A DNA stretch of 64,000 bases. Origin: Escherichia coli. Its GTDB lineage: Bacteria > Pseudomonadota > Gammaproteobacteria > Enterobacterales > Enterobacteriaceae. The position numbers and the translations under genes are program-made. The stretch lies in NCBI RefSeq assembly GCF_009931435.1, contig NZ_CP043414.1. One strand, written 5' to 3'. This document shows positions 15,188-47,239 of this stretch, in pieces (positions within the stretch are counted from its first letter, which is position 1; each line of letters starts with the position of its first letter). The notes under the pieces are model-generated. The model saw nothing but the letters and a program-made list of their open reading frames with translations. It was not told where the DNA came from and ran no database searches.

Positions 15188-15434
15188 AATCTCGCGCTAA
15201 CAACCTGGAATCGAGCCGTCATACTACGGCGCAACGCCCTATAAAGTAAACGATGACCCTGCGGGAACTTCAGGGTAAAATGACTATCAAAATGTGAATT
15301 GCAGCTGACCTGGGACTTGTACCCGGGTCGGTATTTTTTTGCTTCTGGTCCCGGTGAGGAGTTATGCCGGGCAGGCCGAACAGCTGGGGTGGGTGGAGAC
15401 TCGCCCCATCAGGAATATTCAAGAGGTATAACAA

Positions 15435-21990: not shown

Positions 21991-22077
21991 GCCGAGGTGG
22001 TGGAATTGGTAGACACGCTACCTTGAGGTGGTAGTGCCCAATAGGGCTTACGGGTTCAAGTCCCGTCCTCGGTACCA
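21991..22077 (+). tRNA. leuU: tRNA-Leu (anticodon GAG)
   Basis: GCCGAGGTGGTGGAATTGGTAGACACGCTACCTTGAGGTGGTAGTGCCCAATAGGGCTTACGGGTTCAAGTCCCGTCCTCGGTACCA; long variable arm; 14 nt after secG stop. Confidence 0.95.
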
Positions 22078-25857: not shown

Positions 25858-25934
<77 letters not shown>

Positions 25935-26056
25935 CTTTCCCTTAGAGTCCTTTTTCAAATATACTGTGAAGACTTCGGCCTTCGTAGTGGGATTTGAAAA
26001 AATCCTTCTGGAAAGTGCTCCAGACCGCAGTTGCGGTTATAGGGTTCAGTTATATA

Positions 26057-26087
26057 AAGCCCCGATTTATCGGGGTTTTTTGTTATC
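26057..26087 (+). terminator. intrinsic terminator/attenuator between metY and rimP
   Basis: AAAGCCCCGATTTATCGGGGTTTTTTGTT. Confidence 0.75.
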
Positions 26088-26140
26088 TGACTACAGAATA
26101 ACTGGGCTTTAGGCCCTTTTTTTATGTCTTGGGGGTGGGC

Positions 26141-30820: not shown

Positions 30821-30896
30821 ATGCGGGATAAGGCGTTTACGCTGCATCCGGCATGGATTGCCTGATGCGACGCTGGCGCGTCTTATCAGGCCTACG
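30821..30896. repeat. REP pair (BIME) between infB and rbfA
   Basis: inverted copies of the GCCTGATGCGACGC...CTTATCAGGCCTAC REP motif. Confidence 0.8.
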
Positions 30897-32366: not shown

Positions 32367-32732
<366 letters not shown>

Positions 32733-32747: not shown

Positions 32748-32778
32748 GAAAAGGGGCCTGAGTGGCCCCTTTTTTCAA
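32748..32778 (+). terminator. rpsO intrinsic terminator
   Basis: GAAAAGGGGCCTGAGTGGCCCCTTTTTTCAA. Confidence 0.88.
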
Positions 32779-32977
32779 ACTGACGGCAGCAATTCACTGG
32801 AAACTAATGTATTGTTGCTATGAATGATCTTCCGTTGCAGAGGTTCGCGCGGCTAATGAGAGGCTTTACCCACATTGGGCTGGGTTAGGGTTGTCATTAG
32901 TCGCGAGGATGCGCAGAAGATCGGGTATTAACACCAGTGCCGTAAGGTGCTGTCTAAGAAAGAGAAAGGATATTACA

Positions 32978-36212: not shown

Positions 36213-36293
36213 ATGAAAATTGCTGATCAATTTCATGATGAGTTATGTAGACTGGCCGCCATTAATTTTGAGGCACACGTACTACATGGCTGA
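36213..36293 (+). CDS. yrbN: small protein YrbN (26 aa) overlapping the deaD start
   Basis: [26 protein letters not shown]; position and length match my recollection of the annotated E. coli small protein upstream of deaD; no obvious SD. Confidence 0.5.
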
Positions 36294-38175
36294 ATTCGAA
36301 ACCACTTTTGCAGATCTGGGCCTGAAGGCTCCTATCCTTGAAGCCCTTAACGATCTGGGTTACGAAAAACCATCTCCAATTCAGGCAGAGTGTATTCCAC
36401 ATCTGCTGAATGGCCGCGACGTTCTGGGTATGGCCCAGACGGGGAGCGGAAAAACGGCAGCATTCTCTTTACCTCTGCTGCAAAATCTTGATCCTGAGCT
36501 GAAAGCACCACAGATTCTGGTGCTGGCACCGACCCGCGAACTGGCGGTACAGGTTGCTGAGGCAATGACGGATTTCTCTAAACACATGCGCGGCGTAAAC
36601 GTGGTTGCCCTGTACGGCGGCCAGCGTTATGACGTGCAATTACGCGCCCTGCGTCAGGGGCCGCAGATCGTTGTCGGTACTCCAGGCCGTCTGCTGGACC
36701 ACCTGAAACGTGGCACTCTGGACCTCTCTAAACTGAGCGGTCTGGTTCTGGATGAAGCTGACGAAATGCTGCGCATGGGCTTCATCGAAGACGTTGAAAC
36801 CATTATGGCGCAGATCCCGGAAGGTCATCAGACCGCTCTGTTCTCTGCAACTATGCCGGAAGCGATTCGTCGCATTACCCGCCGCTTTATGAAAGAGCCG
36901 CAGGAAGTACGCATTCAGTCCAGCGTGACTACCCGTCCTGACATCAGCCAGAGCTACTGGACTGTGTGGGGGATGCGTAAAAACGAAGCGCTGGTACGTT
37001 TCCTGGAAGCGGAAGATTTTGATGCGGCGATTATCTTCGTTCGTACTAAAAACGCGACTTTGGAAGTGGCAGAAGCTCTTGAGCGTAACGGCTACAACAG
37101 CGCTGCACTGAACGGTGACATGAACCAGGCGCTGCGTGAGCAGACTCTGGAACGCCTGAAAGATGGTCGTCTGGATATCCTGATTGCGACCGACGTTGCG
37201 GCCCGTGGCCTGGACGTTGAGCGTATCAGCCTGGTAGTTAACTACGATATCCCGATGGATTCCGAGTCTTACGTTCACCGTATTGGTCGTACCGGCCGTG
37301 CGGGGCGTGCTGGTCGTGCGCTGCTGTTCGTTGAGAACCGCGAGCGTCGTCTGCTGCGCAACATTGAACGCACTATGAAGCTGACCATTCCGGAAGTAGA
37401 ACTGCCGAACGCAGAACTGCTGGGCAAACGCCGTCTGGAAAAATTCGCCGCTAAAGTACAGCAGCAGCTGGAAAGCAGCGATCTGGATCAATACCGTGCA
37501 CTGCTGAGCAAAATTCAGCCGACGGCGGAAGGTGAAGAGCTGGATCTCGAAACTCTGGCAGCCGCACTGCTGAAAATGGCACAGGGTGAACGTACTCTGA
37601 TTGTTCCGCCAGATGCGCCGATGCGCCCGAAACGTGAATTCCGCGACCGTGACGACCGTGGTCCGCGCGATCGTAACGACCGTGGCCCACGTGGCGACCG
37701 TGAAGATCGTCCGCGTCGTGAACGTCGTGATGTTGGCGATATGCAGCTGTACCGTATTGAAGTGGGCCGCGATGATGGTGTTGAAGTTCGTCATATCGTT
37801 GGCGCGATTGCTAACGAAGGTGACATCAGCAGCCGTTACATCGGTAACATCAAGCTGTTTGCTTCTCACTCCACCATCGAACTGCCGAAAGGTATGCCGG
37901 GTGAAGTGCTGCAACACTTTACGCGTACTCGCATTCTCAACAAGCCGATGAACATGCAGTTGCTGGGCGATGCACAGCCGCATACTGGTGGTGAGCGTCG
38001 TGGTGGTGGTCGTGGTTTCGGTGGCGAACGTCGTGAAGGCGGTCGTAACTTCAGCGGTGAGCGCCGTGAAGGTGGTCGTGGTGATGGTCGTCGTTTTAGC
38101 GGCGAACGTCGTGAAGGCCGCGCACCGCGTCGTGATGACTCTACTGGTCGTCGTCGTTTCGGTGGTGATGCGTAA
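36286..38175 (+). CDS. deaD: cold-shock DEAD-box RNA helicase DeaD (CsdA)
   Basis: ORF 36220..38175 trimmed to [21 protein letters not shown]; 629 aa; motifs [25 protein letters not shown]; RGG/ER-rich C-tail. Confidence 0.95.
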
Positions 38176-38200
38176 TCAACGCTGAACAGCGAACACAATC

Positions 38201-38218
38201 TGTAAAATAATATATACA
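38201..38218 (+). promoter_or_regulatory. TyrR box upstream of mtr
   Basis: TGTAAAATAATATATACA matches TGTAAA-n6-TTTACA with one mismatch. Confidence 0.6.
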
Positions 38219-38252
38219 GCCCCGATTTTAACCATCGGGGCTTTTTTTCTGT
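38216..38252 (+). terminator. intrinsic terminator after deaD
   Basis: ACAGCCCCGATTTTAACCATCGGGGCTTTTTTTCTG. Confidence 0.85.
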
Positions 38253-38257
38253 CTTTT

Positions 38258-38275
38258 GTACTCGTGTACTGGTAC
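38258..38275 (+). promoter_or_regulatory. TrpR operator in mtr promoter
   Basis: GTACTCGTGTACTGGTAC, palindromic GTACT...AGTAC type, about 50 bp upstream of mtr ATG. Confidence 0.65.
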
Positions 38276-38328
38276 AGTGCAATGCATAACAACGCAGTCG
38301 CACTATTTTTCACTGGAGAGAAGCCCTC

Positions 38329-39573
38329 ATGGCAACACTAACCACCACCCAAACGTCACCGTCGCTGCTTGGCGGCGTGGTGATTATCGGCGGCACCATT
38401 ATTGGCGCAGGGATGTTTTCTCTGCCAGTGGTCATGTCCGGTGCGTGGTTCTTCTGGTCAATGGCGGCGCTGATCTTTACCTGGTTTTGTATGCTGCATT
38501 CCGGCTTGATGATTCTGGAAGCTAACCTGAATTATCGAATTGGCTCGAGCTTTGACACCATCACCAAAGACTTGCTGGGCAAAGGCTGGAACGTGGTCAA
38601 CGGCATTTCCATTGCCTTTGTGCTCTATATCCTGACCTATGCCTATATTTCTGCCAGCGGTTCGATTCTGCATCACACCTTCGCGGAGATGTCGCTGAAT
38701 GTTCCGGCACGAGCTGCAGGTTTTGGTTTTGCGCTACTGGTGGCGTTTGTGGTGTGGTTGAGCACCAAAGCCGTCAGCCGGATGACGGCGATTGTGCTTG
38801 GGGCGAAAGTTATTACCTTCTTCCTCACTTTCGGCAGTTTGCTGGGGCATGTGCAGCCTGCGACATTGTTTAACGTCGCGGAAAGCAATGCGTCTTATGC
38901 ACCGTATCTGTTGATGACCCTACCGTTCTGTCTGGCCTCATTTGGTTATCACGGTAACGTGCCGAGCCTGATGAAGTATTACGGCAAAGATCCGAAAACT
39001 ATCGTGAAATGCCTGGTCTACGGTACGCTGATGGCGCTGGCGCTGTATACCATCTGGTTGCTGGCGACGATGGGCAACATCCCTCGTCCGGAGTTTATCG
39101 GAATCGCCGAGAAGGGCGGTAATATTGATGTGCTGGTACAGGCATTAAGCGGTGTATTGAACAGCCGTAGCCTGGACCTTCTGCTGGTCGTGTTCTCAAA
39201 CTTTGCAGTGGCGAGTTCGTTCCTCGGCGTAACGCTGGGTTTGTTTGACTATCTGGCAGATCTGTTTGGTTTTGACGACTCTGCCCTGGGCCGCTTGAAA
39301 ACGGCACTGTTGACCTTTGCACCGCCTGTCGTGGGTGGCCTGCTGTTCCCGAACGGATTCCTGTACGCCATTGGTTATGCTGGCTTAGCGGCTACCATCT
39401 GGGCTGCAATTGTTCCGGCGCTGTTGGCCCGCGCATCGCGTAAACGCTTTGGCAGCCCGAAATTCCGTGTCTGGGGCGGCAAGCCGATGATTGCACTGAT
39501 TCTGGTGTTTGGTGTTGGCAACGCACTGGTGCATATTTTATCGAGCTTTAATTTGCTGCCGGTGTATCAGTAA
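38329..39573 (+). CDS. mtr: tryptophan-specific permease Mtr
   Basis: 414 aa [42 protein letters not shown]; 11 TM. Confidence 0.96.
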
Positions 39574-47062: not shown

Positions 47063-47239
47063 TGTCGGATGCGGCGTAAACGCCTTATCCGACCTACGGT
47101 TTGCATCGTTGCAGGCCTGATAAGACGCGGCAAGCGTCGCATCAGGCAACGGCAGTCGGATGCGGCGCAGGCGCCTTATTCGACCTACGGTTTGTGTCGT
47201 GTAGGCCTGATAAGACGCGGCAAGCGTCGCATCAGGCAT
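47063..47239. repeat. tandem BIME: two ~91 bp units each carrying two REP motifs
   Basis: unit 47065-47147 and near-identical unit 47156-47237 (TCGGATGCGGCG...GCCTGATAAGACGCGGCAAGCGTCGCATCAGGCA). Confidence 0.85.

What the first reader, a model, noticed from the sequence alone, without database searches (positions are those of the whole stretch)
38201..38275. Composite TyrR box and TrpR operator upstream of mtr
A TGTAAA-n6-TATACA TyrR-type box (38201-38218) overlaps the deaD terminator, and a GTACTCGTGTACTGGTAC TrpR-type palindrome (38258-38275) sits just before the mtr start. This is consistent with the known dual control of the tryptophan permease and shows how compactly the terminator and operators are packed.
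Basis: partly seen in the sequence, partly recalled or inferred. Interest (0 to 1): 0.2.

Follow-up and report, generated by a model that had tools for sequence, protein, structure and literature searches.

The report
Known mtr promoter: TyrR boxes, TrpR operator
This is the well-studied control region of the E. coli tryptophan-permease gene mtr, where an activator site (TyrR) and a repressor site (TrpR) share the 153-base gap with the terminator of the upstream gene deaD; it is real, strongly conserved and already known.

Summary
The window is E. coli chromosome (pnp-nlpI-yrbN-deaD-mtr). This intergenic region differs from K-12 MG1655 at two bases, neither in the TyrR box arms or the TrpR operator.

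- **Above chance.** Each motif is the only hit of its kind in 64 kb, with about 0.17 expected.
- **TrpR site.** A matrix built from the four other K-12 TrpR operators ranks 38258-38275 first in the window: 19.9 bits against 9.75 for the runner-up, and none of 100 simulated windows reaches it.
- **Conservation.** The operator is present in all 78 sequences compared (window plus 77 Enterobacteriaceae). The strong TyrR box sits at a fixed distance from it in 74 of 78. The hairpin between them keeps pairing through compensatory changes while its loop drifts.
A weak, promoter-distal TyrR box (38171-38188) overlaps the deaD stop codon. The core promoter is a poor -35 CTGTCT plus an extended -10 TGgTACAGT, which the operator covers.
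- **One correction.** The strong box abuts the terminator stem rather than truly overlapping it.

The layout matches the published description. This is an ordinary, already known regulatory region. Interest is low.

The parts
36286..38175 (+). deaD coding sequence (ATP-dependent RNA helicase). Its last codons and its stop codon lie inside the weak TyrR box.
   Evidence: RefSeq annotation of an identical E. coli record, mapped with an offset of 35099. The ORF ends at 38175.
38171..38188 (+). Weak, promoter-distal TyrR box CGTAATCAACGCTGAACA. It matches 8 of 12 arm positions and keeps G-N14-C. It overlaps the deaD stop codon TAA at 38173-38175.
   Evidence: Consensus scan. Taken as 22-mers, the weak box (38169-38190) and the strong box (38199-38220) are 8 bp apart, as stated in PMC4374768. 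The assignment is my inference. A box of at least 7/12 at this position was found only in the two E. coli sequences and two Citrobacter sp..
38201..38218 (+). Strong, promoter-proximal TyrR box TGTAAAATAATATATACA, matching 11 of 12 arm positions.
   Evidence: Identical in K-12. Present at a fixed distance from the operator in 74 of 78 sequences. The arms are conserved (0.92 and 0.85) and the centre less so (0.79).
38218..38248 (+). deaD intrinsic terminator: stem AGCCCCGAT/ATCGGGGCT, a 7-nt loop, then T7. It fills the space between the TyrR box and the -35.
   Evidence: -19.2 kcal/mol, z -3.5. Across 77 sequences 99.4% of cells are paired, 5 of 8 pairs show compensatory changes, and slid controls reach at most 58%. 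Majority-base frequency is 0.53 in the loop and 0.99 in the T-tract.
38249..38254 (+). Inferred weak -35 hexamer CTGTCT (3 of 6 to TTGACA), with an 18-bp spacer to the -10.
   Evidence: Inference from the sequence and from the published 42-bp distance between the strong-box centre and the -35. Poorly conserved (0.79). The simple promoter scan did not call it.
38258..38275 (+). TrpR operator GTACTCGTGTACTGGTAC (20-mer TGTAC...GTACA at 38257-38276). It covers the promoter spacer, the extended -10 TG and the first three bases of the -10.
   Evidence: Matrix from the trp, aroH, trpR and aroL operators: 19.9 bits, top hit in the window, next best 9.75, 0 of 100 simulated windows as high. Present in 78 of 78 sequences. 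Majority-base frequency 0.97.
38270..38278 (+). Inferred extended -10, TGgTACAGT (TG at 38270-38271, hexamer TACAGT at 38273-38278; TACAAT in many other genera).
   Evidence: Sequence and conservation. The transcription start implied near 38284-38286 is inferred and was not verified; no TSS dataset could be retrieved.
38315..38331 (+). Shine-Dalgarno GGAG (38315-38318) and the mtr start codon ATG (38329-38331).
   Evidence: CTGGAGA is conserved in most genera.
38329..39573 (+). mtr coding sequence (tryptophan:H+ symporter, 414 aa).
   Evidence: Orthologues of 84-99% identity lie downstream of deaD in 80 Enterobacteriaceae loci.

Best explanation
The 153-bp deaD-mtr gap is the known mtr regulatory region and works by activation and repression at one promoter.

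**Activation.** A TyrR dimer binds the strong box at 38201-38218, four helical turns (42 bp) upstream of a poor -35. With tyrosine or phenylalanine bound, it activates transcription by contacting the C-terminal domain of the RNA polymerase alpha subunit (class I activation). With phenylalanine, a second dimer binds the weak box at 38171-38188, which overlaps the deaD stop codon, and raises activation further.

**Repression.** Tryptophan-bound TrpR binds the operator at 38258-38275. The operator covers the spacer, the extended -10 TG and the start of the -10 hexamer, so TrpR excludes polymerase.

**Outcome.** mtr is expressed most when tyrosine or phenylalanine is plentiful and tryptophan is scarce.

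**The terminator.** The deaD intrinsic terminator at 38218-38248 occupies the otherwise non-specific DNA between the activator site and the -35.

**Shown here:** the sequences, their statistical uniqueness, near-identity with K-12 (two neutral differences), the matrix match, conservation and fixed spacing across Enterobacteriaceae, and structural conservation of the terminator.

**Taken from the literature or from my knowledge of it:** protein binding, the direction of regulation, the cofactor dependence and the contact with the alpha subunit.

**Inferred:** the exact -35, -10 and transcription start, and the assignment of the weak box.
For: - The region is E. coli deaD-mtr and matches K-12 apart from two neutral positions.
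- The TyrR box is a 1-mismatch consensus hit and the only one in 64 kb, with 0.17 expected.
- The TrpR site is the top matrix hit, at 19.9 bits. The four training operators score 18.4-26.5, the next window hit scores 9.75, and 0 of 100 simulated windows reach it.
- Footprint: the operator is present in 78 of 78 sequences. The strong box is present in 74 of 78, always 48.5 +/- 1 bp from the operator start, even though the loop between them varies.
- The terminator stem covaries.
- The literature gives a matching layout and regulatory logic: PMC4374768, PMC5343134, PMC7142922, PMC6524683.
- The Pittard/Yang laboratory's mtr primer CTGTCTTTTGTACTCGTGTACTGGTACA matches 38249-38276.
Against: - The primary 1991-1997 papers with footprints, mutants and the mapped transcription start are not held. 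The site-to-sequence assignment therefore rests on a secondary description plus identity with K-12.
- The weak box is a poor match (8 of 12). Its left arm is largely deaD coding sequence and stop codon. It is not conserved outside E. coli and two Citrobacter sp..
- The -35 and the transcription start are inferred. The simple promoter scan did not call this promoter; its only call in the region, TGAACA-17-AATAAT at 38183-38211, is a different site.
- Invariance of the operator could owe something to its overlap with the extended -10.
Confidence: 0.93

Rival explanations
1. The conserved GTAAA...ATACA stretch acts mainly at the RNA level, as part of the deaD 3' UTR. It would be an AU-rich single-stranded stretch just upstream of a strong terminator, for example an Hfq-binding or 3'-UTR-derived small-RNA module, or a determinant of mRNA stability. 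On this reading its likeness to a TyrR box is secondary.
For: In the predicted fold of the 3' UTR the box is unpaired and lies directly 5' of the terminator hairpin. The box, hairpin and T-tract are conserved as one block, while the sequence between the stop codon and the box is not.
Against: - The conservation pattern is that of a protein-binding palindrome: both arms kept at exactly N6 spacing, the G-N14-C pair kept, the centre freer.
- The distance to the mtr operator is fixed to within 1 bp. That matters for a DNA activator site, not for an RNA tail.
- Rfam has no family here and no paper mentions a deaD 3' UTR RNA.
- Published genetics assign the box to TyrR.
Confidence: 0.03
2. The two motifs are chance consensus matches in AT-rich intergenic DNA, and the real control of mtr lies elsewhere.
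For: Each motif alone has roughly a 12-16% chance of occurring somewhere in a shuffled 64-kb window.
Against: - Both fall within 75 bp of each other, in the one intergenic region upstream of a known TyrR and TrpR target.
- The matrix score exceeds all 100 simulated windows.
- Both are conserved across about 77 genomes while neighbouring bases drift.
- The sequence matches the characterised K-12 promoter apart from two neutral positions.
Confidence: 0.01
3. The invariance of 38258-38278 reflects core-promoter constraint only (extended -10 and spacer), not TrpR binding.
For: TGgTACAGT overlaps the 3' part of the operator and would be conserved in any case.
Against: - Promoter spacers are not normally invariant, yet GTACTC.TGTACT at 38258-38270 is conserved at or near 100% apart from one free position, 38264.
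- The sequence scores like genuine TrpR operators in a matrix that excludes it.
- The literature reports TrpR repression of mtr.
Confidence: 0.02

Closest known systems
E. coli K-12 mtr promoter-operator region (Heatwole & Somerville 1991; Sarsero, Wookey & Pittard 1991; Sarsero & Pittard 1991)
   Same: It is the same locus. All motifs are identical, and the only two intergenic differences lie in the weak-box spacer (38179) and the terminator loop (38230). The geometry matches the published description: strong box proximal and 42 bp from the -35, weak box distal and 8 bp away.
   Different: Nothing functional. This strain carries a rare loop variant, A at 38230; only 8 of 5,425 E. coli genomes are identical over 38196-38288.
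tyrP promoter (the other TyrR-activated transporter gene)
   Same: Both have a strong plus a weak TyrR box and are activated by a phenylalanine-bound TyrR dimer through the polymerase alpha subunit (details from my knowledge of Pittard et al. 2005).
   Different: At tyrP the weak box overlaps the -35, so the tyrosine-bound hexamer represses. At mtr both boxes lie upstream of the -35, so TyrR activates with tyrosine or phenylalanine, and repression is handled by a different protein, TrpR.
TrpR operators of trpLEDCBA, aroH, trpR and aroL
   Same: All are 18-bp quasi-palindromes with outer GNAC...GTNC arms. The mtr site shares 12-13 of 18 bases with each and scores within their range. Like the trp operator, it overlaps the core promoter.
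   Different: The inner CTAG half-sites are degenerate (CTCG and CTGG). The site reads better as GTACT repeated at 8-bp intervals (38258, 38266) plus GTAC at 38272. aroL is the other promoter that combines TrpR and TyrR sites, but there both proteins repress.

Membership tests
TyrR box (operator of the TyrR regulon) | 18-bp palindrome TGTAAA-N6-TTTACA with the invariant G-N14-C pair | tested here: met
   38201-38218 matches 11 of 12 arm positions and keeps G2 and C17. It is the only hit in the window, with 0.17 expected. The weak box at 38171-38188 matches 8 of 12 and keeps G2 and C17.
TyrR box (operator of the TyrR regulon) | For activation: a strong box upstream of the -35 on the correct helical face | tested here: met
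   The box centre at 38209.5 is 42 bp (four turns) from the inferred -35 CTGTCT, matching PMC4374768. The distance to the operator is fixed at 48.5 +/- 1 bp in 74 sequences. The -35 itself is inferred.
TyrR box (operator of the TyrR regulon) | Physical binding by TyrR and TyrR-dependent regulation | not testable with these tools
   Reported for the K-12 sequence, which is identical at these sites, in papers cited. The primary papers are not held.
TrpR operator | Sequence similarity to the established TrpR operators | tested here: met
   A matrix from the trp, aroH, trpR and aroL operators, with mtr excluded, gives 19.9 bits. This is rank 1 in the window, the next hit scores 9.75, and 0 of 100 simulated windows reach it.
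TrpR operator | Overlap with the core promoter, so that binding excludes polymerase | tested here: inconclusive
   The operator overlaps the inferred extended -10 TGgTACAGT. The transcription start was not verified because no dataset could be retrieved.
TrpR operator | Physical binding by tryptophan-bound TrpR | not testable with these tools
   The literature states that TrpR represses mtr.
Rho-independent (intrinsic) terminator | G+C-rich hairpin followed by a U-tract at the end of a gene | tested here: met
   A 9-pair stem with 6 G-C pairs, followed by T7, 43 nt after the deaD stop. Free energy -19.2 kcal/mol, z -3.5. Compensatory changes occur in 5 of 8 pairs.
Rho-independent (intrinsic) terminator | A mapped RNA 3' end at the U-tract | not tested
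   In the supplementary files of the 3'-end mapping paper that are held as text, the only deaD entry is an internal position (3307737) and no position in 3305800-3305899 is listed.

The most novel reading that the evidence does not exclude
The deaD terminator may be a working part of the mtr promoter rather than passive filler. Its invariant T-tract, directly upstream of the -35, could serve as the A/T-rich docking surface for the polymerase alpha subunit that TyrR recruits. In the other direction, TyrR bound at the foot of the hairpin could alter deaD termination or read-through into mtr. One DNA segment would then couple termination of one gene to activation of the next. The natural IS200 insertions in the T-tract (strain 405) would be ready-made tests.
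Probability: 0.1. Interest if true: 0.35.

Novelty: already known. Interest (0 to 1): 0.08.

Why it matters
The finding adds no new biology. It re-identifies a textbook example of two amino-acid-sensing regulators integrated at one promoter. The modest added value lies in three results:
- The TrpR operator and the strong TyrR box, with their spacing, are conserved across most Enterobacteriaceae genera sampled.
- The weak box is essentially specific to E. coli.
- The whole 153-bp gap is functionally occupied, starting inside the last codons of deaD.

Tried and rejected
- **Primary papers.** I tried to read PMC208063, PMC212541, PMC207980 and PMC178520. None is held.
- **Transcription start and 3' end.** Thomason 2015 is not held. 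The Cappable-seq supplements have no matching coordinates. In the supplementary files of Adams 2021 that are held as text, the only deaD entry is an internal position. The transcription start and the terminator 3' end therefore remain inferred.
- **Idealised TrpR consensus.** GTACTAGTTAACTAGTAC at up to 3 mismatches finds nothing, because the mtr site has 4 mismatches. I replaced it with a matrix built from real operators.
- **Sigma-54 motif.** I recalled a sigma-54-like motif near TGGTAC...TGCA. There is no match at up to 2 mismatches with canonical spacing at mtr, and window-wide hits are at or below chance. By eye the GG-to-GC spacing is one base too long. Dropped.
- **Other weak-box candidate.** CGCTGAACAGCGAACACA (38180-38197) keeps G-N14-C but matches only 5 of 12 positions and lies 3 bp from the strong box. 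That does not fit the published 8-bp separation. Rejected in favour of 38171-38188.
- **The only promoter-scan hit.** TGAACA-17-AATAAT at 38183-38211 lies inside the TyrR boxes, upstream of the terminator. I regard it as a chance match.
- **deaD 3' UTR RNA.** A literature search found nothing and Rfam has nothing here.

Full report
**What is in the sequence.**
- Both lie in the 153-bp gap between an ORF ending in TAA at 38173-38175 and an ATG at 38329.
- A megablast of 38100-38420 matches 5,425 of 5,426 complete E. coli genomes. One record is 100% identical, and there RefSeq annotates the flanking genes as deaD and mtr. The local gene order is pnp-nlpI-yrbN-deaD-mtr on the + strand and yhbW on the - strand.
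- Compared with K-12 MG1655, the intergenic region differs at two bases: 38179 (A for T) and 38230 (A for T, in a hairpin loop). The TyrR box arms and the TrpR operator are untouched.

**Is it more than chance?**
- The TyrR consensus TGTAAA-N6-TTTACA has one hit in the 64-kb window at up to 1 mismatch, and this is it. Shuffles give 0.17 expected. It is still the only hit at up to 2 mismatches, where 2.17 are expected.
- GTACT-N9-GTAC also occurs once, with 0.17 expected.
- An idealised TrpR palindrome at up to 3 mismatches misses the site, which has 4 mismatches. I therefore fetched the four other K-12 TrpR operators (trp, aroH, trpR, aroL) and built a matrix from them, leaving mtr out.
- That matrix ranks 38258-38275 first in the window at 19.9 bits. 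The runner-up scores 9.75 and the training operators score 18.4-26.5. None of 100 simulated 64-kb sequences reaches it.
- The site is an imperfect palindrome, with 6 of 9 pairs complementary. It can also be read as GTACT repeated 8 bp apart (38258, 38266) plus GTAC at 38272.

**Comparative evidence.**
- A scan of one genome per species returned 80 Enterobacteriaceae mtr loci with 84-99% protein identity. In all 77 whose upstream sequence I could extract, the sequence upstream of mtr ends in deaD-like coding sequence.
- The operator pattern GTACT..[TC]GTACTGGTAC is present in all 78 sequences compared, the window included. Its mean majority-base frequency is 0.97, and only position 38264 is free to vary.
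- A TyrR box matching at least 9 of 12 positions, with G2 and C17 kept, is present in 74 of 78. Its centre is always 48.5 +/- 1 bp upstream of the operator start.
- The box is missing only in three Cedecea loci (L059, L063, L069) and in Shimwellia (L081).
- The arms are conserved (0.92 and 0.85), the central spacer less so (0.79), and the five bases upstream not at all (0.42).

**The deaD terminator.**
- Between the two sites lies AGCCCCGAT-TTTAACC-ATCGGGGCT followed by T7, at 38218-38248. Its free energy is -19.2 kcal/mol with a z-score of -3.5.
- Across 77 sequences, 99.4% of stem cells pair. Five of eight pairs show compensatory double changes, and slid controls reach at most 58%.
- The loop is free to vary (0.53) and the T-tract is nearly invariant (0.99).
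- This is a genuine intrinsic terminator for deaD. The strong box abuts it, sharing only the outermost A-U pair, or two bases if the box is taken as a 22-mer.

- PMC4374768 summarises the primary work. mtr has two adjacent TyrR boxes upstream of the -35. The strong one is promoter-proximal and centred 42 bp upstream of the -35. The weak one is distal and 8 bp away. Tyrosine acts through the strong box alone; phenylalanine acts through both.
- The only upstream 18-mer that keeps G-N14-C with a reasonable match is CGTAATCAACGCTGAACA at 38171-38188, at 8 of 12. As 22-mers, 38169-38190 and 38199-38220 are exactly 8 bp apart.
- This weak box overlaps the last deaD codons and the stop codon. A box at this position was found only in the two E. 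coli sequences and two Citrobacter sp.. Several other genera instead carry a candidate box 21 bp upstream of the strong box.
- Counting 42 bp from the strong-box centre (38209.5) gives CTGTCT at 38249-38254 as the -35. An 18-bp spacer then leads to TACAGT at 38273-38278, preceded by TG at 38270-38271, which makes an extended -10.
- The operator therefore covers the spacer, the TG and half of the -10. The transcription start, near 38285, is inferred only.

**Mechanism.**
- TyrR bound at the strong box activates a weak-(-35) promoter as a class I activator, through the C-terminal domain of the polymerase alpha subunit.
- A second dimer on the weak box boosts the phenylalanine response.
- Tryptophan-bound TrpR occludes the -10 region.
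- The fixed box-to-operator distance across genera fits the requirement for a correct helical face.

**Comparison and novelty.** This is the K-12 mtr regulatory region itself, so it is already known. The rival readings (chance, an RNA-level role for the box, promoter-only constraint on the operator) are each disfavoured by the matrix result, the palindromic conservation pattern, the fixed spacing and the published genetics. The one mildly novel reading left open is that the terminator's T-tract and hairpin have a role in the mtr promoter, or that TyrR affects deaD termination. I put that at about 10%.

**Limits.** The primary papers and the genome-wide start-site and 3'-end tables could not be read. 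The footprint coordinates are therefore matched through a secondary description plus identity with K-12, not read directly.

Noticed in passing
L087:2545-3265 (E. coli strain 405; equivalent to window ~38247/38248): An IS200C element (tnpA annotated) is inserted inside the T-tract of the deaD terminator. It moves both TyrR boxes about 710 bp away from the intact TrpR operator and core promoter. This should abolish TyrR activation and keep TrpR repression. Eighteen of 5,425 E. coli genomes cover less than 80% of the 93-bp core and may carry similar disruptions.
   Followed up: partly
window 38230 (and 38179): This strain has A where K-12 and nearly all E. coli have T in the terminator loop. Only 8 of 5,425 genomes are identical over 38196-38288. 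38179 A/T lies in the N6 spacer of the weak box. Both look neutral.
   Followed up: yes
L059, L063, L069 (Cedecea) and L081 (Shimwellia), upstream of mtr: These genera keep the TrpR operator and the terminator but have no TyrR box. In its place is a different conserved stretch (..GGCAGTGATAAAAG..). This suggests loss or replacement of TyrR control of mtr.
   Followed up: no
L053, L064, L071, L031, L079 and others, 21 bp upstream of the strong box: Several genera lack the E. coli weak box. They have a different candidate second TyrR box (e.g. CGTAAAAAACTACGTTCA, CGCATAAGCTGCTTTACA) centred 21 bp (two turns) upstream of the strong box, against 30 bp in E. coli.
   Followed up: partly
window 36213-36293: The small ORF yrbN (26 aa) overlaps the deaD start at 36286. 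The mechanical ORF list extends deaD to a TTG at 36220 (651 aa), whereas the annotated protein has 629 aa.
   Followed up: no
window 32748-32919 (-), 32405-32519 (+), 26023-26123 (+), 15218-15339 (+): Rfam gathering-score hits: SraG sRNA antisense to the rpsO-pnp region, the S15 (rpsO) leader, the rimP leader and the greA leader. tRNAs lie at 21991-22074 and 25858-25931. All are expected for this part of the E. coli chromosome.
   Followed up: no
window 30822-30892 (+) and 47114-47185 (-): Two matches to Rfam naRNA4 (CssrE, a REP-derived nucleoid-associated RNA), at 73.5 and 64.6 bits. They are probably REP/BIME repeats.
   Followed up: no
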